From contig CAYOTA010000005.1 of the NCBI GenBank assembly GCA_964406795.1, positions 14,235-78,234 on the forward strand: a stretch of 64,000 nt of DNA, given 5' to 3'. Position numbers and translations under genes: made by a program. This document shows, in pieces, positions 4,742-63,635 of this stretch (position 1 is its first letter; each line of letters begins with the position of its first letter). The stretch is from an uncultured Gammaproteobacteria bacterium. GTDB lineage: Bacteria; Patescibacteriota; Microgenomatia; Levybacterales; GWA1-39-11. A model generated the notes under the pieces. It did not search any database. It had not been told where the DNA came from and worked only from the letters and a program-made list of their open reading frames with translations.

Positions 4742-4816
4742 TGGTGGAGCCGACAGGATTCGAACCTGTGGCCAGGTGTGTATAAGACACCTGCTCTACC
4801 GCTGAGCTACGGCTCC
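4742..4816 (-). tRNA. tRNA-Ile with UAU anticodon (reads AUA)
   Basis: Reverse complement GGAGCCG-TA-GCTC-AGCGGTAGAGC-A-GGTGT-CTTATAC-ACACC-TGGCC-ACAGG-TTCGAAT-CCTGT-CGGCTCC-A-CCA gives a full cloverleaf with anticodon loop CUUAUAC. Confidence 0.8.
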
Positions 4817-10228: not shown

Positions 10229-10232
10229 TATG

Positions 10233-10658
10233 TGGAGATGGCGAGATTGATCTCGCGTCCAAATGTTGTTTTCTAAAACATCTACAAGCGTAGTTAATAA
10301 TTAATTGTCGTTTTGTTTTGATCTTATTAACAAGAAAAACAATTCCAAGATTTTAATTTTCTAACCTAAAGCCAATCATTCTTTAAGCCCTATCTCAACT
10401 GGTTTATGTTCATGTCTATCCGTTGAGAAAAGAAACAACATGAACGGTGTGAACCGTTATGCAAAAGCTTATGCAGCTAGAGCATATCCCTGAGGGGCGA
10501 ACCCCTTAGAGATCCCGTCAGCTAGACGAGCAACGAGCCCACGTGCCTTAACGACTCCGTCGTTTTTAGCATTTGTGTTTTGACTCCTGTTTTACGACTG
10601 TAAATCAAAGTCGGCTTGCAGTTTTAAAAGAGCAAAATCTGTCGATGCGTGCATCCCC
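10233..10658 (-). ncRNA. ssrA: tmRNA (ssrA), about 426 nt with an extended 5' region; tag reading frame ends ...PQGYALAA-UAA
   Basis: The minus-strand 5' end GGGGAUGCACGCAUCGACAGAUUUUGC resembles E. coli GGGGCUGAUUCUGGAUUCGACGGGAUUUGCG. The 3' end GGACGCGAGAUCAAUCUCGCCAUCUCCA resembles E. coli GGACGCGGGUUCAACUCCCGCCAGCUCCA. The in-frame tag GCU CUA GCU GCA UAA lies at plus 10469-10483. The gene sits directly downstream of smpB on the same strand. Confidence 0.65.
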
Positions 10659-52360: not shown

Positions 52361-53725
52361 CTAGAGCTTATTCACTTCTTTATTAAATTCATCTCCTCTA
52401 TCTTTGTAGTTCTTGAACATGCCAAAGCTGGCACAGGCAGGTGACAAGAGTACAACATCTCCAAGTGTGGCTATTTTAGATGCGCCCTGAACTATTGCAT
52501 GCATATCTTTAGCACCTTCTAATACTAAAACTTCCCGTGTGATGTGTTTTTTAATTTCCGGCCACTCAACTCCTATTCCTATAATAGCTTTTATATTCTT
52601 TGCATTTGTGATGGTTTCACCAAGTTCTGAAAAGTCAGAGTTTTTGGATGAGCCTCCAAGTATTAAAATTTCAGGCTCGCTAAATGCTTCTATGACGGCA
52701 ATTGCCGTTTCAGGAGTTGTTGAGAATGAGTCATTGTAATACTTGACCCCGTTCACTATTTTGACAAGCTCCAGCCTATACTGGAGACCTTTAAATGTTG
52801 TAAGAACGTTTATAATATTTTTCATATCCACTCCAGCGAGTGTAGCCGCCATGACTGCCGCACAAGCATTCTCCAGGTTATGTTTTCCAGGAAGTAACAC
52901 GTCCTTTGTTTCTATAACTTCCTGTTCAGTGTCTGACATTTTCAGAAATATTTTTCCTTCATGCACATAACAGCCATGATCTATGTTTTGCTCGCGGCTG
53001 ATTTTGTAAACGGTTCCAACAGTCTCTACATCAGATTCGTTACTTGCCGGATAGTCTTTATTTACTATTGCGAAATCTCCTGCCTCTTGATGTCTTAAAA
53101 TATTACGCTTCGCATCTATGTATTCATATACATCAGTGTGATAATCCAAATGCTCCGAGGTTGTCATAAGCATGACAGCTATGTGAGGGCTGGAAGTTAA
53201 GTCCTGAAGCTGAAATGATGACATTTCTAAAACAACTCTAGATTCAGGCGCTAACTTTTCTAAAAATGAGATGGGAGGCGTTCCTATGTTTCCACCTAAA
53301 TGCGCGTCAAACCCCTGAGCCTTTATCATTTCATAAATAAGGCTGGATGTTGTCCCTTTTCCTTTTGTTCCAGTTACGCCAATAATAGGACAAGGGCACA
53401 AATCAAAGAAAAGCTGGGTTTGAGATGAAATAGTTACTCCTTTGGAAGCGGCGTTGTTAAGGGCATCCTGATGTCTTTTAATGCCAGGACTCCTAAAGAT
53501 TACGTCAAATGTGTCCAAATCATCAAAAGCGTTTTTTCCAAATACTGTAGGAAGACTTAGGCTTTGGATTTTTTCAAGTTCAATCTTTTCAATTTCAGAT
53601 TCGGGTTTTTCAATCCGAATTGATATATCAGCATCAGTGCTTTTTAAAAACTCTATAAGCGCTAAGCCCTCAATTCCGGCGCCCAGCACTGCAACTTTTT
53701 TATTTCTTAATTCCTCTTTTGTCAT
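52361..53725 (-). CDS. murD: UDP-N-acetylmuramoyl-L-alanine--D-glutamate ligase MurD
   Basis: Mur ligase P-loop GVTGTKGKGTTSSL, about 450 aa. Adjacent to murI. Confidence 0.85.
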   Translation of the reverse strand: MTKEELRNKKVAVLGAGIEGLALIEFLKSTDADISIRIEKPESEIEKIELEKIQSLSLPTVFGKNAFDDLDTFDVIFRSPGIKRHQDALNNAASKGVTISSQTQLFFDLCPCPIIGVTGTKGKGTTSSLIYEMIKAQGFDAHLGGNIGTPPISFLEKLAPESRVVLEMSSFQLQDLTSSPHIAVMLMTTSEHLDYHTDVYEYIDAKRNILRHQEAGDFAIVNKDYPASNESDVETVGTVYKISREQNIDHGCYVHEGKIFLKMSDTEQEVIETKDVLLPGKHNLENACAAVMAATLAGVDMKNIINVLTTFKGLQYRLELVKIVNGVKYYNDSFSTTPETAIAVIEAFSEPEILILGGSSKNSDFSELGETITNAKNIKAIIGIGVEWPEIKKHITREVLVLEGAKDMHAIVQGASKIATLGDVVLLSPACASFGMFKNYKDRGDEFNKEVNKL

Positions 53726-54519
53726 ATGCGTTCGTGTTCTGAATTAATTATTTTGCCTGTTAGTTTTTTAACAGCATTGTTAAAAGCAAGAGCATCTCCA
53801 GTTGTATAATACCAATCTTTGTCAGTTTTTTCCAAAGCAAGAAGATTTTCAGCTTCTAGAACACGTTTTGTCTGCCTTGCAACAGCTCCTCCAGAATCCA
53901 AAATTTGTATATTGGGGCCTGCAACTTCTTGTATTTGGTCTTTTATAAAAGGATAGTGAGTGCAGCCAAGCGCTATTGCGTCCACCCCTAACTTTTTAAG
54001 TGGGATAACGTGTTTTTTAAGAATTGCTTTAATTTTAGGGTCCTCTAAATTTCCTGTTTCAATAAGTGATTCGAGCCCCGTGTTTCCTTCTTTATATATA
54101 GCTATGTCTTTCCCAAACTCTGAAATCAAAAGATCCATATAAATACTTTTGACGGTTGATGGAGTTGCCAAAACTGCTGTTTTTTTAGATTTAGTGACAG
54201 CTGCTAACTGTTTTATAACGGGAACTACTCCAATAATAGGCTTTTCAAAGTCTTTACGAAGTGTTTTAATAGCTCCCGTTGAGGCTGTATTACAGGCAAC
54301 CACAATTAGTTTTGCATGCTTGGAGATTAAAAACTCCGTGATATTTTTACTTCTTGTTTGCACTTCTTTAAGAGTTCGCCTTCCATATGGCGCAAAGGCC
54401 AAATCAGCAACATATATAAATCGTTCTTGAAGTAACAATTTTTGAAGTTCTGACAGGATAGTAAGTCCTCCTACTCCTGAGTCAAATATTCCAATAGGTC
54501 TGTCTTGCATTAGGATCAA
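53722..54519 (-). CDS. murI: Glutamate racemase MurI
   Basis: IGIFDSGVGGLTIL and VVACNTAS. Confidence 0.85.
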   Translation of the reverse strand: MILMQDRPIGIFDSGVGGLTILSELQKLLLQERFIYVADLAFAPYGRRTLKEVQTRSKNITEFLISKHAKLIVVACNTASTGAIKTLRKDFEKPIIGVVPVIKQLAAVTKSKKTAVLATPSTVKSIYMDLLISEFGKDIAIYKEGNTGLESLIETGNLEDPKIKAILKKHVIPLKKLGVDAIALGCTHYPFIKDQIQEVAGPNIQILDSGGAVARQTKRVLEAENLLALEKTDKDWYYTTGDALAFNNAVKKLTGKIINSEHERI

Positions 54520-54614
54520 TTATACATTAAATAGCCTCGTGTCACTAATTACTATTGATTTATTATCAAACCCACGATATATTAATAATATAGATAATTT
54601 GGTGTGTTCTATAT

Positions 54615-55319
54615 ATGGCAAAGTATGATTTGAGGATTAAAGCTAGGGAATTGCGGGGAAATGGAATAAGTGTAAAAGAAATCTCGACATATTTGGGCGT
54701 GTCCAAGAGTTCAGCAAGTTTGTGGGTTAGGGATATAATCCTAACAGTCGAGCAATTGGAAAACTTAAGAAAGGCAGAAATAAAAGGAAAAGAGCGGGGA
54801 CGTTTAAAAAGTGCTCTACTACAGAAGAAAAGGCGCACAAATCAGATAGAAGAAGCAAGAGATGAGGGAATTGGGGTAATGTCTGGGCTTTCAGAGAGAG
54901 AATTCCTTATTGCAGGTAGCGCTCTTTATTGGGGTGAGGGTAGTAAAAAGAGTCAACAGGTGGAATTTTGTAATTCTGACCCTAAAATGATAAAATTCTT
55001 GATTGGATGGTTAAAATTTAATTTTCAGGTTACAACGGAGGAGTTAAGGTGTCGCATAGGAATTAACGAACTGCATAGAAAAAGGGAAAGCGAAGTTAAG
55101 CAATTTTGGTCAAAAACGACTGGTATACCAATAGTCCAATTTAATCAAACAAGTTTTAAGCAGGCAAAAAGTAAAAAGGTATATGGAAATTTTAACGAAC
55201 ACTATGGCACTCTTTCTATAAAAGTTTTAAGGCCAACAAAGAGCTTTTATAAAATCTTAGGTCTTATAAATGGTCTAAGTGAGGCAGGAATGAAACTGGT
55301 GTTTCAGGACGTTTCATAA
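54615..55319 (+). CDS. HTH plus LAGLIDADG-like homing-endonuclease-family protein (paralog 1)
   Basis: N-terminal HTH GISVKEISTYLGVSKSSASLW. LAGLIDADG-like block EFLIAGSALYWGEGSK. Paralogous to 59674..60390. Confidence 0.55.
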   Translation: MAKYDLRIKARELRGNGISVKEISTYLGVSKSSASLWVRDIILTVEQLENLRKAEIKGKERGRLKSALLQKKRRTNQIEEARDEGIGVMSGLSEREFLIAGSALYWGEGSKKSQQVEFCNSDPKMIKFLIGWLKFNFQVTTEELRCRIGINELHRKRESEVKQFWSKTTGIPIVQFNQTSFKQAKSKKVYGNFNEHYGTLSIKVLRPTKSFYKILGLINGLSEAGMKLVFQDVS

Positions 55320-55328
55320 GCGTTCTCT

Positions 55329-55354
55329 GGTGGGTTCAATCCCCACTCCTGCTA
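55329..55354 (+). other. Orphan tRNA 3'-end fragment (T arm plus acceptor 3' strand)
   Basis: GGTGGGTTCAATCCCCACTCCTGCT lies immediately after the endonuclease-like gene. No convincing D or anticodon arms upstream. Confidence 0.4.
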
Positions 55355-55399
55355 CATTTTTCCCAGACTTACTCCTACTGTTACAGTTTTCAATTAATT

Positions 55400-55420
55400 C
55401 GGAGGAGGCGGGGTTTGAAC
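55400..55420 (-). other. tRNA-Ser 3'-end fragment duplicate (att-like)
   Basis: Minus-strand GTTCAAACCCCGCCTCCTCCG matches the 3' end of tRNA-Ser(GGA), about 600 bp away and in the same orientation. Confidence 0.5.
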
Positions 55421-55455
55421 AAAGACGTTTTGAAGCGAAGAAATGCGCTTCTTGA

Positions 55456-55830
55456 TTAATCGCAGTTCGGGATCTTTAGGATATCGCACTTATAAAAGTC
55501 ATACCCTATTCCGTATCCAGCAGAAAGTGCAAAGGCAACAAATACTACTGCAACAATCGCATTCACTACATACAAGCGTCTGTCTTTCAATATCGGGAAC
55601 AGCGCTACAAGGCCACCCACACCCACCAAAGCAATGAGAGCAAGTACAAGCCGTTGCTCGAAACCAGTGGTTTCACCTAGTGGGCGAATGAAAGAGAGGA
55701 AAAAATATGCCTGCAATCTGACAAGGGCGTTAGCAATGAAAAATGGAAGGGAGAATGCTATGCCGATAAACAGATAGCGTTTATTAATCCACATAGTAAA
55801 AGCATACATCTCGTTCAGTATTTGGCACAA
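55456..55830 (-). CDS. Small polytopic membrane protein (hypothetical)
   Basis: 124-aa hydrophobic ORF between the tRNA-Ser fragment and the intact tRNA-Ser. Confidence 0.35.
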   Translation of the reverse strand: MCQILNEMYAFTMWINKRYLFIGIAFSLPFFIANALVRLQAYFFLSFIRPLGETTGFEQRLVLALIALVGVGGLVALFPILKDRRLYVVNAIVAVVFVAFALSAGYGIGYDFYKCDILKIPNCD

Positions 55831-56011
55831 GTCCTCGCCGTTGTGATAGAAAGCTTAGAACCGGGTACAAATACCTTGAGGGTCATTTAGGCGATTTTCT
55901 ATATTACAGGATATGTTTGGGATACTTGCGATTCCTAGTTGTTTTTTTAGCAAGCCACATAGGGCTAATCGAGCATAGGAGATGGGTCTTGGAGCAACCC
56001 AAGGCTTTCTG

Positions 56012-56095
56012 CGGAGGAGGCGGGATTTGAACCCGCGTAAGTTTTCACTTGCACGCTTTCCAAGCGTGTGCCATAGGCCACTAGGCGACTCCTCC
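56012..56095 (-). tRNA. tRNA-Ser (GGA), class II
   Basis: Minus strand GGAGGAG-TC-GCC-...-CACGC-TTGGAAA-GCGTG-long variable arm-GCGGG-TTCAAAT-CCCGC-CTCCTCC-G. Anticodon GGA. Confidence 0.8.
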
Positions 56096-56162
56096 AGTTT
56101 TGTTTAATGTGGCCTGCCTTTTTACTTTGCAAAAAGATAAGGCCACTAGGCGACTCCTCCAG
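56075..56162. repeat. 23-nt perfect direct repeat AGGCCACTAGGCGACTCCTCCAG (56075-56097 and 56140-56162) duplicating the 5' end of tRNA-Ser(GGA)
   Basis: Read directly in the sequence. The second copy abuts the stop of the Nudix gene. Confidence 0.7.
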
Positions 56163-56163
56163 A

Positions 56164-56604
56164 TTAAGCTTGTGCAAGCTTTTCGATAATGGGTCGAGCT
56201 TCTGTGAACACATCTTTATCTGATCTATAAGTAAGACGACCCATAACTTGATCCGGTGGTAGCCATTCTACGGCTTCCATTTCGTGGTCGTGTTGAGTTA
56301 TATCTCCTCCGGTAAATTTCATGATGTAGTAATATACGGTCTTTTTCCTTTTTTCGTTATCCATAACATACCAGTAAGTAATTGGGGTTAATTCGTGAAT
56401 AATTTCTCCCTCAGCTCCTGTTTCTTCTTTTACTTCACGCACGGCTGTATCCTTTTTGTCTTCCCCTTTTAGATGTTCTTTGTCTCCAATAAGTCCTTTA
56501 GGAAAAACCCATCCGTGGTGATACGAATGTTGTGACACTAAAACAAATATCGAATTGTCTTCGACTTTGAAAACTACTCCACCAGCTGAAAATTCAAGTC
56601 TCAT
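56164..56604 (-). CDS. Nudix hydrolase
   Basis: Start trimmed to MRLEFSAGGVV because the longer ORF overlaps tRNA genes. Nudix box GEDKKDTAVREVKEETGAEG. Confidence 0.7.
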   Translation of the reverse strand: MRLEFSAGGVVFKVEDNSIFVLVSQHSYHHGWVFPKGLIGDKEHLKGEDKKDTAVREVKEETGAEGEIIHELTPITYWYVMDNEKRKKTVYYYIMKFTGGDITQHDHEMEAVEWLPPDQVMGRLTYRSDKDVFTEARPIIEKLAQA

Positions 56605-56664
56605 AAATATTTTTGTAAGCTGTACTTCGTCCCTCAGTACCAGGTTTTCGGAATACCTCAAAAC

Positions 56665-56739
56665 TGGCGCTCTCGGTGGGAATCGAACCCGCATCAGAGG
56701 ATCCGGAATCCCCCGTTCTATCCGTTGAACTACGAGAGC
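56665..56739 (-). tRNA. tRNA-Arg (CCG)
   Basis: Minus strand GCTCTCG...GGGGA-TTCCGGA-TCCTC...GCGGG-TTCGATT-CCCAC-CGAGAGC-G-CCA. Confidence 0.8.
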
Positions 56740-56748
56740 ATAGTTCTG

Positions 56749-56833
56749 CGGAGGGTACAGGATTCGAACCTGTGAAGGACTTGCGCCCTCGAGTTTTCGA
56801 AACTCGTGCAATTGGCCGCTATGCGAACCCTCC
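56749..56833 (-). tRNA. tRNA-Ser (CGA), class II
   Basis: Minus strand GGAGGGT...CGAGT-TTCGAAA-ACTCG-long variable arm-ACAGG-TTCGAAT-CCTGT-ACCCTCC-G. Confidence 0.75.
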
Positions 56834-56902
56834 CAGGTTTCAATCCATGCGCCGCATTTGAGTTTATCGAAAACGCGGTGCCAGGTTCAGGCAAGCTGAA
56901 AT

Positions 56903-56978
56903 TGGCGCACCCGAGTGGGGTCGAACCACCAACCGCAAGATCCGCAATCTTGTACTCTATCCATTGAGCTACGGGTGC
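56903..56978 (-). tRNA. tRNA-Arg (GCG)
   Basis: Minus strand GCACCCG-TA-GCTC-AATGGAT-AGAGT-A-CAAGA-TTGCGGA-TCTTG-CGGTT-GGTGG-TTCGACC-CCACT-CGGGTGC-G-CCA. Confidence 0.8.
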
Positions 56979-57118
56979 TCGTCTAAATAACTCCTGCTCT
57001 TCAGATCTTGCAGATCTTTAACGCAGTCGTATTTCTCCTCTTAAAATTGTTTCACAATTTTGGAATACGAATTTAATAGACACCTTGTATTTTAGTTGAT
57101 TTACGGGCAATTTACAAA

Positions 57119-57676
57119 CTATGAGGCGCGTTCCAGAGGAAAATTTTTAGAAAGCCATTCTCCTGACTTTTCCATGAATGTTTGCTGGACTACTTCTCGG
57201 TATGGTAAGAAGTTTATGAGTACTTGCCGCGCGTGTTCTTTAGAAATATTTCCCAGTGTAATTCGTAACTCTCCGGGAATAAGTGCCTCAGTCCTTACAA
57301 TTAGTGTGTCTACCCCATCTATCTTTTTAAAATAAAAGTCATACAGTTCTCCCCAAATGTAAAAATGGTCCTCTACCTTTATACCTTCAGTGGACACTCG
57401 GTAGTGAAAATCTTTAGGAGGCACTGTTGAGAGTACAATTGATAAAAATGTGACTGCTGCGACGGCTAGCATGAGTTGGTATTGTGCAAACAAGAAAACT
57501 ATAAGTTCTATTAAGAAAAATATAAGCATTACTGACAAATAAAACTCACGCTTTTTCTTTCTAAATGGGCGTCCAGGTGCTGTCCAAGACAAGAGAGTCC
57601 GTACATCATTGTATTCTTCTTGAGGCTCGTTTTCGGAAGGGGGAACAGGTTGCTCCATATGTTTACTATGCACCAA
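57119..57676 (-). CDS. Membrane protein with bacterial PH-like domain (hypothetical)
   Basis: Two TM helices followed by a soluble domain. Similar architecture to 6629..7330. Confidence 0.4.
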   Translation of the reverse strand: MVHSKHMEQPVPPSENEPQEEYNDVRTLLSWTAPGRPFRKKKREFYLSVMLIFFLIELIVFLFAQYQLMLAVAAVTFLSIVLSTVPPKDFHYRVSTEGIKVEDHFYIWGELYDFYFKKIDGVDTLIVRTEALIPGELRITLGNISKEHARQVLINFLPYREVVQQTFMEKSGEWLSKNFPLERAS

Positions 57677-59280: not shown

Positions 59281-59673
59281 GATAGTGTGCTTGCAGTGAG
59301 CGAAGCGAATCTGTTGCGGGGCAAGGAATCGCACCTTGTCTAGAAGATTATGCTTGTTGTTAATCTCCCATTACTGAAAGTATCGGACTATATCATATTC
59401 CAATTAGCTTGGAACTCCAGCGTATAGTCTCTACGGGGTTCAGTTAGATTAAACATCTAAGAGAACTTCCCTCGGTATTGCCCTTTCTGCTTAGTTTTGA
59501 ATTCGGGTTTCACCGATACAGCTAGATTCATTCATCAATGTTACCATTGCGACGGCCCAATTGAGCCTTCTGTGCAGCTTTACACTACCCCGCGCGTCCT
59601 GATCATAATAGCATGTACCTATGTGTAAGTCAATTCGCACAAAATATACAGTTAATATTTTCCTATTGACGAG
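59281..59673 (-). ncRNA. Candidate group-I-intron-like structured RNA core (R and S elements) or remnant
   Basis: Minus strand has GTAGAGACTATACG (R-like, consensus CAGAGACTACACG) at plus 59421-59434. About 25 nt downstream it has TGATATAGTCCG (S-like, consensus AAGATATAGTCC) at plus 59384-59395. Confidence 0.35.
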
Positions 59674-60390
59674 GTGCGGTTATTATTCAATAATAAAAAT
59701 GTGTCATATTCAAGCGTTAAAAAAGATGAGGTAAGGAAGCTTAGGAGAGCGGGTATGAGCTTGAATCACATAGAAAAAACCTCCAATGTGCCTAAATCCA
59801 CTATAAGAGAATGGATAAAGGATATTTCCTTAAACCCAGAACAAACTCAGGTGTTGCTTGAAGGCGCACTCATTGCTCTTCAGAATGGTAGAAAAGTTGC
59901 GCAAGAAAATAAACGCAAAAAAAGAAGTAAAAAAGAAGAAGAATTACACATTCAAGGAGTAGCCGAGATAGGTGCGCTAAATAAACGTGAATTGTTTATC
60001 GCAGGGATCGCTTTATATTGGGCAGAAGGATTTAAGAATAGACATGAAAAAAGGTTGGGTTTCTGCAACTCTGATCCTAAAATGATAAAATTTTATCTTT
60101 ATTGGTTACGTAGTGTATTAGGCGTTGACGCTCTATATATCACTGCTCGTTTAACCATAAATTCTGCACATAAAGATCGTGAAGAAAAAATTCTTGAATA
60201 TTGGCGAAATGTAACTGAATTGCCCGATTCAAGTTTCACAAAGACTTTTTATCAAACCGTTATTTCAGTCAAGCAATTTGAAAATAGAGATTTGTATAAT
60301 GGCGTGCTCCGCCTTCATGTAAAAGAAAGTTTGGACACCTTACTTAAAATGAGAGGATGGATCGAGGGATTAGGAAGTATTCAAAGATGA
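59674..60390 (+). CDS. HTH plus LAGLIDADG-like homing-endonuclease-family protein (paralog 2)
   Basis: HTH MSLNHIEKTSNVPKSTIREW. LAGLIDADG-like ELFIAGIALYWAEGFK. FCNSDPKMIKF is shared with paralog 1. The true start may be a GTG a few codons in. Confidence 0.55.
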   Translation: MRLLFNNKNVSYSSVKKDEVRKLRRAGMSLNHIEKTSNVPKSTIREWIKDISLNPEQTQVLLEGALIALQNGRKVAQENKRKKRSKKEEELHIQGVAEIGALNKRELFIAGIALYWAEGFKNRHEKRLGFCNSDPKMIKFYLYWLRSVLGVDALYITARLTINSAHKDREEKILEYWRNVTELPDSSFTKTFYQTVISVKQFENRDLYNGVLRLHVKESLDTLLKMRGWIEGLGSIQR

Positions 60391-61580: not shown

Positions 61581-61874
61581 AAATTGACATGTAAGAAAAA
61601 CAGGAGTATAGTACGTATTGAGGAGAGGCTTACGAAAGAATTTACGAGCGTGTAGATCCCGCTAAGCGGGAAAACGAGGAAGAAGGGTCCCGATTTAATC
61701 GGGACAATCGGACCTCCGATTAAATCGGAGAGTATTTGCGGAAACCTTCAGGTTGTGAATGTCAACCTTAATAGTTTTTTCAAACCTACTAGTAATAGTA
61801 GACACAAAGAAAAACTTATGCATTTTAAGCCCCATTATTCTCCTGAAGTAATTTTTTATATAACAACATAATCT
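61581..61874 (+). promoter_or_regulatory. Structured glmS 5' leader (candidate glmS ribozyme/riboswitch)
   Basis: Three consecutive hairpins CCCGCtaaGCGGG, CCCGAtttaaTCGGG and CTCCGAttaaaTCGGAG, plus an ACGAGGAAGAAGGG segment, upstream of glmS. Confidence 0.3.
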
Positions 61875-63635
61875 ATGTGTGGAATTTTTGGTTATATTGG
61901 ACACAAACATAACGCACCTGAAGTAATTCTGGAAGGTCTTTCTGTGCTTGAATACCGTGGGTATGATTCATGGGGCATAGCCATTAAAGACAAAGATGTA
62001 CTTGCCGTGGATAAACACGTAGGAAAAATTGGCAATGCCAAAACCTCTTTACCGGCTGCTACTATAGGGATTGGGCACACAAGATGGGCAACTCATGGAG
62101 GGGTAACTTGCGAAAACGCACATCCTCATCTTGACTGTACTAAAAGAATTGCAGTGGTGCACAATGGTATCGTGGAAAACTATAAGTCATTAAAAAACAT
62201 ACTTATTGAATCTGGACACACATTCTTATCAGATACTGACTCAGAAGTTATAGCCCATCTTATAGAAGAAAACCTTAAAAAAGATGAACTTTTTGAGGCA
62301 GTAAGAAGTGCATTTAACGCGTGTCAGGGGTTGTCAGCCATTGTTGTCCTGGACACAAAAAATGATGAGATTGTGGCAGCCAAAACCGGCTCACCGCTTA
62401 TTGTAGGTTTAGGAAATCAAGAATTTTTTATAGCCTCTGATATTTCAGCATTAGCACCTCATATTAAAGAGGCACTATACATAAAAGACCATGAGATGGT
62501 AGTGTTATCCCGCAACCACGTAAAGCTATATTCTCTTTTGACGGGTCAGGAGATTTCAGCCCAGGTGGAAGCAGTTGACTATGTGGTGGGTGACGACTCA
62601 ATGGGCTCATACAGCCATTTTATGATGAAAGAAATAGTGGAGCAGCCGGAAGTCTTACTGCGATCCGTAACCGATTTACCTGAGATTGAAAAATTGGCCA
62701 GTCTTATTAAAAGTAAACAGAAAACATTCTTTATTGCAGCGGGTACAGCACATCACGCGGCCTTAACTGGAGTACAAATGCTATCCCAACTAGCTTCAAT
62801 TTCTGTACGTACGCTGGTAGCCTCAGAATTTGCATATATAGAGTCTGAAATAGACTCACATAGTTTAATTGTTGCTTTTTCCCAAAGTGGGGAAACAATT
62901 GACGTTATAGAGCCGTTAAGCAGGGCTCACGAAAAAGGCGCTGTTATCGCAAGCATTGTAAATGCACCAGGTTCAACTATACAGCGCATGAGCGATGTGT
63001 CAATTTTGCTTCACGCGGGCCCTGAAAAATCAGTTGCATCCACCAAAGCATATACAGCAAAGTTGGGCGTTTTGCTTTGTCTCGTGTATATGCTTGCACA
63101 AAAAAAAGATGCCGCTGAATTACTAACGAAAATAGCGCAAGAAGAAAATAGAATACTTTTGCCTGAAAATACGGTAAAAATTCAACAATTAGCGCACAGG
63201 TTAAAAAACAATGATTTTATGTTTGCAATTGGACGGGGCATGTCATATCCTTCAGCGCTTGAAGCAGCACTCAAGATAAAAGAAGTATCCTACACTCATA
63301 TAGAAGGACTTCCTGGGGGAGAATTAAAACACGGATCAATTGCGTTAATTGAAAAAGGCACACCTTGTATTGTTTTTGCGCCTCACGATGATACATTTGC
63401 GTCTATTATTTCAAATGCGATGGAGATTAAAGCTCGCGGAGGGATGATTGTAGGCATAAGTCCTAAAAATTCAGAAGTATTTGATGAATATATAGAGGTA
63501 GCAGATTTAGGAATCGGAAGTATCTTGGCTCAGGTTTTGCCAGTACAGTTGTTAGCATATTACTTGGCACTAGAAAAAGGAGTTACTGACCCGGATAAGC
63601 CTCGGAATTTAGCCAAAAGCGTTACAGTTAAGTAA
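61875..63635 (+). CDS. glmS: Glutamine--fructose-6-phosphate aminotransferase GlmS
   Basis: N-terminal MCGIFGYIG (Cys2 nucleophile), two SIS domains, C-terminal ...AKSVTVK. Confidence 0.9.
   Translation: MCGIFGYIGHKHNAPEVILEGLSVLEYRGYDSWGIAIKDKDVLAVDKHVGKIGNAKTSLPAATIGIGHTRWATHGGVTCENAHPHLDCTKRIAVVHNGIVENYKSLKNILIESGHTFLSDTDSEVIAHLIEENLKKDELFEAVRSAFNACQGLSAIVVLDTKNDEIVAAKTGSPLIVGLGNQEFFIASDISALAPHIKEALYIKDHEMVVLSRNHVKLYSLLTGQEISAQVEAVDYVVGDDSMGSYSHFMMKEIVEQPEVLLRSVTDLPEIEKLASLIKSKQKTFFIAAGTAHHAALTGVQMLSQLASISVRTLVASEFAYIESEIDSHSLIVAFSQSGETIDVIEPLSRAHEKGAVIASIVNAPGSTIQRMSDVSILLHAGPEKSVASTKAYTAKLGVLLCLVYMLAQKKDAAELLTKIAQEENRILLPENTVKIQQLAHRLKNNDFMFAIGRGMSYPSALEAALKIKEVSYTHIEGLPGGELKHGSIALIEKGTPCIVFAPHDDTFASIISNAMEIKARGGMIVGISPKNSEVFDEYIEVADLGIGSILAQVLPVQLLAYYLALEKGVTDPDKPRNLAKSVTVK

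What the first reader, a model, noticed from the sequence alone, without database searches (positions are those of the whole stretch)
59281..59700. Group-I-intron-like catalytic core motifs on the strand opposite a LAGLIDADG-family gene
About 250 nt upstream of the second HTH-LAGLIDADG gene the minus strand carries GTAGAGACTATACG. About 25 nt downstream it carries TGATATAGTCCG. These closely match the group I intron R (…CAGAGACTACACG…) and S (…AAGATATAGTCC…) consensus elements that form P7. A T-arm-like hairpin CAAGG-TGCGATT-CCTTG-CCCCGCA follows. LAGLIDADG genes are classic group I intron passengers, but here the ORF is on the opposite strand and no host exon such as rRNA or an intact tRNA is evident. 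This may be a degenerate or inverted mobile intron remnant, or a free-standing group-I-derived RNA.
Basis: partly seen in the sequence, partly recalled or inferred. Interest (0 to 1): 0.55.

Follow-up and report, generated by a model that had tools for sequence, protein, structure and literature searches.

The report
Self-splicing intron inside initiator tRNA gene
The motifs belong to an intact, 211-base self-splicing (group I) intron that interrupts the anticodon loop of the start-codon tRNA gene of a candidate-phyla-radiation bacterium; this intron type is already known, and the neighbouring gene is not a demonstrable LAGLIDADG endonuclease but a sporadic, uncharacterised gene that sits next to tRNA genes.

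Summary
Window 59594..59314 (-) is a tRNA(CAU) gene with initiator features. It is split between U33 and C34 by a 211-nt group I intron (59563..59353). Rfam RF00028 scores 53.2 bits (E 1e-10). The "T-arm-like hairpin" is the real T arm of exon 2, and in-silico splicing gives tRNA-Met(cat). The same split gene occurs in at least 165 Microgenomates/Patescibacteria loci. Across 67 aligned sequences 97% of pair cells form standard pairs, 37 of 65 pairs show compensatory changes, and the U·G at the 5' splice site is invariant. The insertion site matches the classical "fMet.2Ug" IC3 class known from cyanobacteria. It is therefore a new member of a known kind, not a remnant or a free-standing RNA. 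The adjacent ORF (59701..60390, +) lies outside the tRNA gene. Pfam, a PDB profile search, hhalign against I-CreI and Foldseek on two confident AlphaFold models gave no LAGLIDADG match. Only an N-terminal HTH is supported. The ORF is present, truncated or cleanly absent between the two Met tRNA genes in related genomes. Paralogs sit directly upstream of tRNA-Met or tRNA-Ile(UAU) genes. A homing-endonuclease-like role is possible but unproven.

The parts
59314..59594 (-). Complete split tRNA(CAU) gene (pre-tRNA, positions 1-73; no CCA encoded). Initiator-type features: C1xA72, G2-C71, C3-G70, A73.
   Evidence: Sequence. ARAGORN calls tRNA-Met(cat) on the in-silico spliced sequence. The spliced sequence folds as a cloverleaf at minimum free energy. 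The same gene occurs in 70 genome loci and about 90 metagenome loci.
59564..59594 (-). Exon 1: acceptor 5' strand, D arm, anticodon-stem 5' strand, C32 and U33. It ends in ...GGCU.
   Evidence: U33 forms the invariant U.G pair of P1 (67/67 sequences).
59353..59563 (-). Group I intron, 211 nt, no ORF, inserted between U33 and C34. It ends in the terminal G at 59353.
   Evidence: Rfam RF00028 at 53.2 bits, E 1e-10, full model. Covariation analysis. Element coordinates.
59554..59567 (-). P1: exon/intron GGCU|C (59567..59563) paired with the internal guide GGGCC (59558..59554). U.G wobble at the splice site.
59532..59552 (-). P2 hairpin with a GUAA (GNRA) loop.
   Evidence: All 9 pairs show compensatory changes among the 67 sequences (helix 5).
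59416..59526 (-). Catalytic core. P3 is 59526..59521 with 59421..59416. P4 is 59516..59511 with 59477..59472. P5 is 59507..59505 with 59483..59481. P6 is 59471..59469 with 59438..59436.
   Evidence: P3 has compensatory changes in 5 of 6 pairs. P4, P5 and P6 are 92.5-99.8% paired (helices 6-9). Coordinates.
59384..59434 (-). P7 is GACUA 59429..59425 with UAGUC 59390..59386 and is pseudoknotted with P3. The P8 hairpin (59414..59398) lies between them.
   Evidence: P7 is 99.1% paired but essentially invariant, so it shows no covariation. P8 covaries.
59365..59380 (-). P9 hairpin with a GUAA loop.
   Evidence: 5 of 6 pairs show compensatory changes (helix 12).
59314..59352 (-). Exon 2: CAU anticodon, A37, A38, anticodon-stem 3' strand, T arm (59338..59322), acceptor 3' strand (59321..59315) and A73 (59314).
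   Evidence: The anticodon stem pairs across the intron, with compensatory changes in 4 of 5 pairs (helix 3).
59605..59633 (-). Sigma-70-like promoter match TTGACT-17-TATTAT (TG-extended), 11 nt upstream of tRNA position 1.
   Evidence: 10 of 12 matches; 5 sites found against 1.2 expected in shuffles. This is a consensus match only.
59701..60390 (+). Neighbouring ORF-A (229 aa, GTG start), divergent from the tRNA gene. It has an N-terminal HTH, a long helix and a C-terminal alpha/beta domain of unknown family. It is not part of the intron.
54615..55319 (+). Paralog ORF-B (234 aa, 33% identical to ORF-A). Its last 37 nt overlap a tRNA(CAU)-like gene.
55283..55354 (+). Probable elongator tRNA-Met(CAU) with an atypical D arm. 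ARAGORN does not call it.
   Evidence: Sub-threshold Rfam hit at 31 bits. Cloverleaf at minimum free energy. Resembles the ARAGORN-accepted tRNA-Met of L059, which lies in the same position relative to the ORF.

Best explanation
Window 59594..59314 (minus strand) is the gene for an initiator-type tRNA(CAU) of a Patescibacteria (Microgenomates, Levybacteria-like) bacterium. A 211-nt, ORF-less group I intron interrupts it between U33 and C34. Proposed mechanism: the gene is transcribed from its own sigma-70-like promoter. The intron folds into P1-P9. P1 forms when exon nucleotides G31-C32-U33, which belong to the anticodon stem and loop, pair with the internal guide GGGCC. The U33.G wobble marks the 5' splice site. 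An exogenous guanosine attacks there. The intron's terminal G (59353) then enters the P7 guanosine site and the exons are ligated. The product is a 70-nt tRNA with anticodon loop CUCAUAA, and CCA is added afterwards. Shown here: the sequence, the exon/intron boundaries, the covariation-supported fold and the wide conservation. Inferred: catalysis and splicing in vivo. The intron belongs to the classical 'fMet.2Ug' IC3 class of bacterial tRNA introns. The neighbouring ORF is not an intron passenger and not a demonstrable LAGLIDADG enzyme. It belongs to an uncharacterised HTH-protein family whose members lie immediately upstream of tRNA-Met or tRNA-Ile(UAU) genes and are sporadically present. 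Its proximity to the intron most likely follows from insertion into the spacer of the tRNA-Met/tRNA-fMet gene pair.
For: Intron identity: Rfam RF00028 full-model hit at 53.2 bits against a gathering score of 50, E 1e-10. Host gene: ARAGORN calls tRNA-Met(cat) after in-silico splicing, and 64 of 71 related spliced sequences give the same call. Conservation: 70 of 80 genome loci and about 90 of 120 metagenome loci carry the same exon1|intron|exon2 architecture. Introns are 178-299 nt, start after ...GGCU and end in G before CAUAA. Structure: 65 pairs in 13 helices are 97.1% paired, against 31-44% when partners are slid by 1-3 columns. 37 pairs show compensatory changes. The covariation score is 0.404 against at most 0.091 for slid partners, and 0 of 500 shuffles reach it. 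The U.G at the splice site is present in 67 of 67 sequences. The anticodon stem covaries across the intron. Class: Williams 2020 (bioRxiv 10.1101/2020.01.27.920355) defines fMet.2Ug as CU/intron/CAUAA and reports that an intron database subgroups this class as IC3. Initiator identity: C1xA72, G2-C71, C3-G70 and A73 match the Fmt determinants listed in PMC5389676. The au/GC/gu anticodon stem with invariant G30-C40 is a documented natural initiator variant. Related loci L133 and L093 carry the same intron in initiator-like tRNAs; L133 has the full GC/GC/GC stem. Neighbouring ORF: it is cleanly absent in related loci, a roughly 750-nt indel between collinear flanks. Paralogs lie 2-27 nt upstream of tRNA-Ile(tat) or tRNA-Met(cat) genes.
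Against: No experiment or transcript data were available, so self-splicing is inferred. The Rfam score is only 3 bits above the gathering threshold; my reading is that this reflects a model built from non-bacterial seed sequences. P7 is invariant and so gives no covariation support. Some initiator features are not canonical: U11:A24 is elongator-like, there is only one G-C pair in the 29-31/39-41 block, and 25 of 71 relatives have U1-A72. I could not check whole genomes for a second, uninterrupted initiator gene. Some alignments and exon calls used my own regular expressions, which required G before CATAA.
Confidence: 0.92

Rival explanations
1. One reading: a degenerate or inverted mobile-intron remnant, or a free-standing group-I-derived RNA with no host gene.
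For: ARAGORN and the Rfam tRNA model find no tRNA at this place in the unspliced DNA. The nearby ORF is on the other strand.
Against: Both tRNA halves flank the intron precisely and splice in silico to a cloverleaf tRNA-Met(cat). All core helices are intact and covary. The architecture is conserved in at least 165 loci.
Confidence: 0.01
2. The intron is real, but the host is an elongator tRNA-Met or a tRNA-Ile2(CAU), not the initiator.
For: U11:A24 is elongator-like, there are not three consecutive G-C pairs, and one third of relatives have a U1-A72 pair. Introns at the same site occur in elongator-looking tRNA(CAU) genes of GC-rich organisms (L140, L148).
Against: The acceptor-end features C1xA72, G2-C71, C3-G70 and A73 are those named as Fmt determinants. 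G30-C40 is invariant, and au/GC/gu is a known initiator variant. A separate canonical elongator tRNA-Met(cat) lies next to it in most loci. A tRNA-Ile(UAU) in the window and in many loci plausibly covers AUA decoding (my inference), which leaves no evident role for a tRNA-Ile2(CAU).
Confidence: 0.06
3. The neighbouring ORF is a free-standing homing-endonuclease-like mobile gene that cooperates with the ORF-less intron ('collaborative homing'). It would cut intron-less or ORF-less alleles, and the intron would protect the resident tRNA-fMet gene.
For: The ORF shows a presence/absence polymorphism at one exact intergenic site between collinear flanks. Four truncated adjacent copies were counted, and some hits are split into two ORF fragments. 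Paralogs lie beside other conserved tRNA genes, which is typical target logic for homing endonucleases. The N-terminal HTH resembles those of transposases and resolvases. Many polar residues in the C-terminal domain are invariant. Collaborative homing has precedents in phages (PMC3984707).
Against: No known nuclease fold or motif was detected. The protein's relationships track host taxonomy in 33 of 37 cases, as expected for vertical descent. The family's constant neighbour is a downstream tRNA-Met or tRNA-Ile gene rather than the intron. No intron-less target allele was seen in 1.3 Mb of related loci.
Confidence: 0.25
4. The neighbouring ORF is a host factor for these tRNA genes: a splicing chaperone (maturase-like) for the intron, or an HTH transcription regulator of the divergent tRNA promoters.
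For: Conservation is high (mean column identity 59%, 21 invariant columns) and descent is largely vertical. The ORF start lies about 100 nt from the tRNA 5' end, with back-to-back promoter-like sites. Maturase activity is the best-documented secondary function of intron-associated endonuclease proteins (PMC3943268).
Against: 35 of the 136 informative intron-bearing loci have no copy within 1 kb or more. Paralogs accompany intron-less tRNA genes. From my own knowledge, IC3 tRNA introns such as those of Azoarcus and Anabaena self-splice without protein.
Confidence: 0.15

Closest known systems
Cyanobacterial tRNA-fMet group I intron (class 'fMet.2Ug', subgroup IC3; for example Synechocystis PCC 6803, whose intron carries I-Ssp6803I)
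   Same: The host is the initiator tRNA. The insertion site is the same, between U33 and C34 (CU/intron/CAUAA). The -1 base is U and the last base is G. The core is small and IC3-type.
   Different: The host here is a Patescibacteria lineage, where the intron looks fixed across many candidate phyla. The tRNA has an au/GC/gu anticodon stem. The intron has no ORF; from my own knowledge, the Synechocystis intron encodes a PD-(D/E)xK endonuclease. I did not compare the sequences directly because no cyanobacterial sequence was fetched.
Azoarcus tRNA-Ile(CAU) and Anabaena tRNA-Leu(UAA) IC3 introns (classes Ile2.5Ug and Leu.3Ug)
   Same: These are roughly 200-250-nt ORF-less introns in bacterial tRNA anticodon loops. 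P1 is built from anticodon-arm nucleotides. GNRA tetraloops cap P2 and P9; they are GUAA in the window intron. The architecture of the comparison introns is recalled from my own knowledge.
   Different: The insertion positions differ: after loop nucleotide 5 or 3, against 2 here. The host tRNAs also differ.
Group I introns and LAGLIDADG homing endonucleases in CPR rRNA genes (Tsurumaki et al. 2024, PMC11270868)
   Same: The same bacterial radiation is unusually rich in self-splicing insertions in structural RNA genes.
   Different: Going by that paper's title and abstract only, those insertions lie in rRNA genes and include sequences that encode a homing endonuclease. Here the intron is in a tRNA gene, carries no ORF, and the neighbouring protein fails every LAGLIDADG test I could run.
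Collaborative (trans) homing: a free-standing endonuclease plus an ORF-less intron in phages (reviewed in PMC3984707)
   Same: [quoted passage not shown]
   Different: No nuclease activity or nuclease fold has been shown for the ORF. Its paralogs accompany intron-less tRNA genes. The host is a bacterial chromosome, not a phage.

Membership tests
Group I intron (Rfam RF00028) | Covariance-model score at or above the curated gathering score | tested here: met
   53.2 bits against 50, full model 1-253, E 1.1e-10. Related loci L074 and L057 score 72 and 60.9 bits.
Group I intron (Rfam RF00028) | P1 helix with a U.G wobble at the 5' splice site | tested here: met
   GGCU|C pairs with GGGCC. The U.G pair is present in 67 of 67 sequences.
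Group I intron (Rfam RF00028) | Terminal G immediately before the 3' exon | tested here: met
   G at 59353 precedes CAUAA. A G before CATAA plus a tRNA 3' half was found in 72 of 73 genome loci. The G was part of my search pattern, so this count is only partly independent.
Group I intron (Rfam RF00028) | Conserved core P3-P9, with P3 and P7 pseudoknotted, supported by covariation | tested here: met
   P2, P3, P5, P8 and P9 show compensatory changes. Overall 97.1% of cells are paired and 37 of 65 pairs covary. P7 is conserved but invariant, so it is uninformative on covariation.
Group I intron (Rfam RF00028) | Guanosine-dependent self-splicing | not testable with these tools
   Needs an in vitro transcription and splicing assay, or RNA-seq across the junction.
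fMet.2Ug class of bacterial tRNA introns (IC3) | Insertion after the second anticodon-loop nucleotide of tRNA-fMet, with U at -1 and G at the last intron position | tested here: met
   Anticodon loop is CU|CAUAA. The class is defined in Williams 2020.
fMet.2Ug class of bacterial tRNA introns (IC3) | Formal IC3 subgroup assignment by comparison with reference IC3 structures | not tested
   Only indirect evidence: the class is listed as IC3, and the size and the GNRA loops on P2 and P9 fit.
Bacterial initiator tRNA | CAU anticodon; 1:72 mismatch; G2-C71, C3-G70 and A73 (Fmt determinants) | tested here: met
   The window has C1xA72, G2-C71, C3-G70 and A73. Among 71 relatives position 1 is C in 44 and U in 25. 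The determinants are listed in PMC5389676.
Bacterial initiator tRNA | Three consecutive G-C pairs at 29:41, 30:40 and 31:39 | tested here: not met
   The stem is A29-U41, G30-C40, G31.U39. This au/GC/gu pattern is a documented natural initiator variant, and G30-C40, the essential pair, is invariant here.
Bacterial initiator tRNA | A11:U24 (purine 11 : pyrimidine 24); this feature is recalled from my own knowledge | tested here: not met
   U11:A24 in all 67 sequences (columns 11 and 23).
LAGLIDADG homing endonuclease (claimed for the neighbouring ORF) | Match to the Pfam LAGLIDADG profiles or to solved LAGLIDADG enzymes by sequence | tested here: not met
   Pfam gave nothing at E<=0.01 for ORF-A. 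For 24 family members at E<=1 the listed matches are almost all HTH families and none is a LAGLIDADG family (25 of 37 matched families shown). A PDB profile search at E<=10 gave only HTH hits and a few unrelated weak hits, with no LAGLIDADG enzyme.
LAGLIDADG homing endonuclease (claimed for the neighbouring ORF) | The alpha-beta-beta-alpha-beta-beta-alpha core fold | tested here: not met
LAGLIDADG homing endonuclease (claimed for the neighbouring ORF) | Motif helix ending in a conserved acidic residue followed by Gly | tested here: inconclusive
   'IAGIALYWAEG' has an invariant E109-G110 at the end of helix 95-108. This resemblance prompted the label, but it is not diagnostic on its own.
Intron-encoded homing endonuclease (intron passenger) | ORF located inside the intron | tested here: not met
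   The ORF starts 107 nt beyond tRNA position 1, on the other strand. The 211-nt intron has no room for an ORF.

The most novel reading that the evidence does not exclude
The HTH protein family next to the intron may be a new kind of free-standing, tRNA-gene-targeting mobile endonuclease with a catalytic domain unlike any solved fold. Its paralogs would have colonised the position immediately upstream of the tRNA-Met, tRNA-Ile(UAU) and tRNA-fMet genes of Microgenomates. At the tRNA-fMet locus it would coexist with an ORF-less IC3 intron that splits its presumed target. That would be a chromosomal, clade-wide example of the 'collaborative homing' stage proposed as the origin of mobile introns.
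Probability: 0.22. Interest if true: 0.65.

Novelty: new member of a known kind. Interest (0 to 1): 0.38.

Why it matters
For the intron, the value is mainly practical. Across many Microgenomates lineages a tRNA gene with initiator features carries a ribozyme, and in the 64-kb window it is the only such gene. ARAGORN and the Rfam tRNA model do not report this gene in the unspliced window DNA, so genome-completeness checks and metabolic reconstructions can wrongly score these organisms as lacking tRNA-fMet. If it is the sole initiator gene, translation initiation in these reduced-genome bacteria depends on a self-splicing reaction. The more open lead is the neighbouring protein family. It is conserved yet sporadically present, always lies next to tRNA genes, and has an N-terminal HTH and a C-terminal domain with no convincing structural relative. 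If it proves to be a nuclease or a tRNA-gene regulator, it would define a new family and could show how free-standing genes and ORF-less introns come together.

Tried and rejected
1. ARAGORN with intron search (-i) on the unspliced region found nothing. I believe it expects introns at the canonical 37/38 position, so this failure is not evidence against a tRNA.
2. A second intron near paralog ORF-B: an Rfam E-value scan of 52500-57200 found none, only a sub-threshold tRNA-like hit.
3. An intron-less copy of the target (GGCTCATAAYC): none in the window and none in 201 loci.
4. LAGLIDADG assignment of the ORF: rejected after Pfam, NCBIfam, PHROGs, a PDB profile search, hhalign, and Foldseek on the full-length and C-terminal models.
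5. IS or transposon reading of the ORF: there are weak HTH-level hits to transposases. However, the indel between ORF-containing and ORF-less alleles is only about 750 nt, essentially the ORF itself, with no room for transposon ends. Rejected as a classical IS.
6. Co-divergence of the ORF and the intron: the Mantel-type correlation is weak (rho 0.16), because the pre-tRNA is short and conserved. Inconclusive.
8. The Paquin 1997 paper (PMC179611) is not held.
9. Williams' Table 1 (counts by phylum) is an image and could not be read.
Full report
OBSERVATION. On the minus strand the window carries GTAGAGACTATACG at 59434..59421 and TGATATAGTCCG at 59395..59384, 25 nt further 3'. It then carries CAAGG-TGCGATT-CCTTG at 59338..59322, followed by CCCCGCA at 59321..59315. 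Rfam Intron_gpI (RF00028) matches 59573..59364 (-) over the whole model at 53.2 bits, against a gathering score of 50. The E-value is 1.1e-10 in the 64-kb scan and 1.2e-12 locally.

WHAT IT IS. Reading outwards from the Rfam hit, the sequence 5' of the intron is CGCGGGGTAGTGTAAAGCTGCACAGAAGGCT. The sequence 3' of a terminal G is CATAATCTTCTAGACAAGGTGCGATTCCTTGCCCCGCAA. Joined, these give a 70-nt molecule that ARAGORN calls tRNA-Met(cat). It folds as a cloverleaf at minimum free energy.

The boundaries are as follows:
- exon 1: 59594..59564
- intron: 59563..59353 (211 nt, no ORF)
- exon 2: 59352..59314

The 5' splice site follows U33, which forms a U.G wobble in P1 (GGCU|C with the internal guide GGGCC). 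The intron ends in G. The spliced anticodon loop is CU|CAUAA.

A sigma-70-like match, TTGACT-17-TATTAT, lies 11 nt upstream of position 1. No CCA is encoded.

RELATED SEQUENCES AND STRUCTURE. I first searched for relatives of the neighbouring protein. All hits that carried a name were Patescibacteria, including Levybacteria. I then fetched 80 genome loci. In 73 of them the R...P8...S motif lies about 250-310 nt upstream of the ORF start. In 70 of them I could delimit the same exon1|intron|exon2 gene, with introns of 178-299 nt. Of the 71 spliced sequences (70 loci plus the window), ARAGORN as tRNA-Met(cat).

A search that did not depend on the protein used an intron-plus-exon-2 DNA pattern against metagenomes. 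It returned 120 loci, about 90 of the same type.

On a 67-sequence alignment, RNAalifold recovered the following helices:
- the acceptor, D and T arms
- the anticodon stem, paired across the intron
- P1, P2, P3, P4, P6, P8 and P9

With P5 and the P7 pseudoknot added, counting gives 65 pairs in 13 helices:
- 97.1% of cells form standard pairs, against 31-44% when partners are slid by 1-3 columns.
- 37 pairs show changes on both sides.
- The covariation score is 0.404, against at most 0.091 for slid partners, and 0 of 500 shuffles reach it.
- The splice-site U.G is present in 67 of 67 sequences.
- P7 (GACUA/UAGUC) is invariant, so it is conserved but gives no covariation evidence.

This is an intact, selectively maintained ribozyme in a maintained tRNA gene. 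It is not a remnant.

WHICH tRNA. [quoted passage not shown] The window tRNA has C1xA72, G2-C71, C3-G70 and A73, and the anticodon is CAU. Two features are not canonical. The anticodon stem is A29-U41/G30-C40/G31.U39 rather than three G-C pairs, and 11:24 is U:A. The same paper documents au/GC/gu as a natural initiator variant and shows that G30-C40 is the essential pair. That pair is invariant here.

Three further points favour the initiator reading:
- A separate, canonical elongator tRNA-Met(cat) lies beside the split gene in most loci.
- A tRNA-Ile(UAU) is present, which plausibly covers AUA decoding and leaves no evident role for a tRNA-Ile2(CAU) (my inference).
- Loci L133 and L093 carry the same intron at the same site in initiator-like tRNAs, and L133 has the full GC/GC/GC stem.

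I therefore read it as the initiator with about 0.9 probability. I could not examine whole genomes for a second initiator gene.

COMPARISON WITH WHAT IS KNOWN. Williams (bioRxiv 10.1101/2020.01.27.920355) lists four classical bacterial tRNA intron classes: Leu.3Ug, Arg.5Ug, fMet.2Ug and Ile2.5Ug. An intron database subgroups all four as IC3. In that nomenclature fMet.2Ug means CU/intron/CAUAA, which is exactly the site found here. The paper also reports 0.49 interrupted tRNA genes per genome in metagenomic assemblies of unnamed phyla. Lui et al. (PMC8172020) remark that tRNAs in their circularised metagenome-derived genomes had group I introns that made them hard to detect. The intron is thus a new member of a known class in a lineage where such introns have been noted. 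I found no paper describing its near-universal presence in the Microgenomates initiator tRNA, nor the neighbouring gene family.

THE NEIGHBOURING "LAGLIDADG" GENE. ORF-A (59701..60390, +, 229 aa) lies outside the tRNA gene, and its start is 107 nt from tRNA position 1. The LAGLIDADG label rests on the motif IAGIALYWAEG. Every test I could run fails to support it:
- Pfam found no family at E<=0.01.
- For 24 members scanned at E<=1, no LAGLIDADG family is among the listed matches; nearly all are HTH families.
- A profile search of PDB sequences gave only resolvase/transposase-type HTH hits and a few unrelated weak hits.
- NCBIfam and PHROGs gave only weak hits confined to the N-terminal region, mostly transposase or regulator HTH-type.
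- hhalign against I-CreI gave probability 0.45%.
- AlphaFold models are confident: full length pLDDT 92.3 and C-terminal domain 89.9. They give an HTH, a 45-residue helix, and then a domain ordered alpha-beta-alpha-beta-alpha-beta-beta-alpha. This is not the alpha-beta-beta-alpha-beta-beta-alpha LAGLIDADG core.
- Foldseek against PDB and BFVD returned no LAGLIDADG enzyme in the top 50. The best matches are OmpA-like and IspF-like sandwiches with TM at most 0.43.

The domain has many invariant polar residues (E109, N123, S124, D125, N154). An enzymatic or nucleic-acid-binding role is therefore plausible, but the family is unassigned.

HOW THE ORF RELATES TO THE INTRON. In most genome loci the gene order is as follows:
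- the split tRNA-fMet gene, on the minus strand
- a spacer of about 110 nt
- the ORF, on the plus strand
- a gap of 10-30 nt
- an elongator tRNA-Met gene, on the plus strand

Counting from the intron side over 165 loci gives (metagenome subset):
- 95 loci with a full-length adjacent ORF
- 4 with a truncated ORF
- 2 with an ORF cut by a contig end
- 35 with no ORF despite at least 1 kb of flank on both sides
- 29 uninformative because the flanks are too short

In ORF-less loci (L169, L184, L129, L114, L158) the elongator tRNA-Met gene lies divergently, roughly 55-85 nt from the split gene. In ORF-containing relatives with identical tRNA exons the tRNA-Met call starts about 875 nt from the split gene. 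The flanks of L169 and L187 are collinear (71-75% identity over 1.3 and 1.5 kb) and differ by a roughly 750-nt indel, which is the ORF.

More divergent paralogs lie 2-27 nt upstream, on the same strand, of tRNA-Ile(tat) genes (L010, L096, L083, L099, L107, L157). Others lie upstream of tRNA-Met(cat) genes with no nearby intron (L073, L075, L120, L134).

In the window itself the module is split. ORF-A keeps the split tRNA-fMet gene. Paralog ORF-B (54615..55319, 33% identical) overlaps a tRNA-Met-like gene at 55283..55354.

The family's relationships track host taxonomy: the nearest labelled neighbour is in the same candidate phylum in 33 of 37 cases.

My reading is that the constant feature of this family is a position immediately 5' of a tRNA gene. 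Its proximity to the intron is most simply a consequence of insertion into the tRNA-Met/tRNA-fMet spacer. I put the probability of no functional link to the intron at about 0.5. A homing-endonuclease-like, collaborative-homing role gets about 0.25 and a maturase or regulator role about 0.15. These remain open and need experiments.

VERDICT. Novelty: a new member of a known kind. Interest is moderate. The intron is routine for specialists but matters for annotating Patescibacteria genomes. The tRNA-associated HTH protein family with an unassigned fold is the part worth following up.

Noticed in passing
window 54615..55354 (+): Paralog ORF-B ends with its TAA stop codon inside the anticodon loop (CAUAA) of a tRNA(CAU)-like gene at 55283..55354. 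ARAGORN and the Rfam tRNA model miss this gene (tRNA-Sec model 31 bits, sub-threshold). It folds as a cloverleaf and resembles the odd-D-arm tRNA-Met of L059. It is probably this organism's elongator tRNA-Met.
   Followed up: partly
L010, L096, L083, L099, L107, L157 (coordinates): Divergent members of the same HTH-protein family (80-108 bits to the family profile) end 2-27 nt before a tRNA-Ile(tat) gene on the same strand. Other members end at, or overlap by about 7 nt, the 5' end of tRNA-Met(cat) genes (L120, L134). The family appears to be tied to the 5' flank of Met and Ile(AUA) tRNA genes.
   Followed up: partly
window 4742..4816 (-), and many loci: A tRNA-Ile with anticodon UAU is present in the window and in many related loci. 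My inference is that these organisms decode AUA without a lysidine-modified tRNA-Ile2(CAU).
   Followed up: no
window 61636..61827 (+): A glmS ribozyme/riboswitch (Rfam 49.6 bits against a gathering score of 37) lies directly upstream of the glmS gene (61875..63635).
   Followed up: no
window 10230..10658 (-): A tmRNA gene (Rfam 108 bits) is 429 nt long against 374 model positions. The alignment shows about 100 inserted nucleotides after the tag-coding region, where 31 model positions are skipped.
   Followed up: no
L140 and L148: GC-rich metagenome contigs carry a group I intron at the same CU|CAUAA site, but in an elongator-looking tRNA(CAU) (GCGCCCGTAGCTCAG...). The intron's P5/P6 region is much larger. 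This may be a different class of interrupted tRNA.
   Followed up: no
L057 2183..2377, L074 2248..2429, L111: In these loci the same intron (Rfam 60.9-72 bits) sits in a tRNA body with an unusual D region (GGGAGGTAAGTATCTC) and T loop (AGCGTAA). The adjacent ORF copies in L057 and L074 lack the N-terminal HTH.
   Followed up: no
L023, L026, L046, L058: These loci have introns of 247-299 nt, against a median of about 200 nt for the set. They are far too short to hold the roughly 690-nt ORF. I did not locate where the extra sequence lies.
   Followed up: no
window 59595..59700: Back-to-back promoter-like sites lie in the 106-nt spacer. TTGACT-17-TATTAT faces the tRNA gene and TTGACG-17-AATAAT faces ORF-A. 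The second site ends 6 nt before the GTG start, which suggests a leaderless or near-leaderless mRNA.
   Followed up: partly
record titles of L002, L007, L008, L016 and others: Many public MAGs that carry this Patescibacteria-type locus are titled 'uncultured Gammaproteobacteria bacterium'. These are probably placeholder or wrong taxonomic labels.
   Followed up: no
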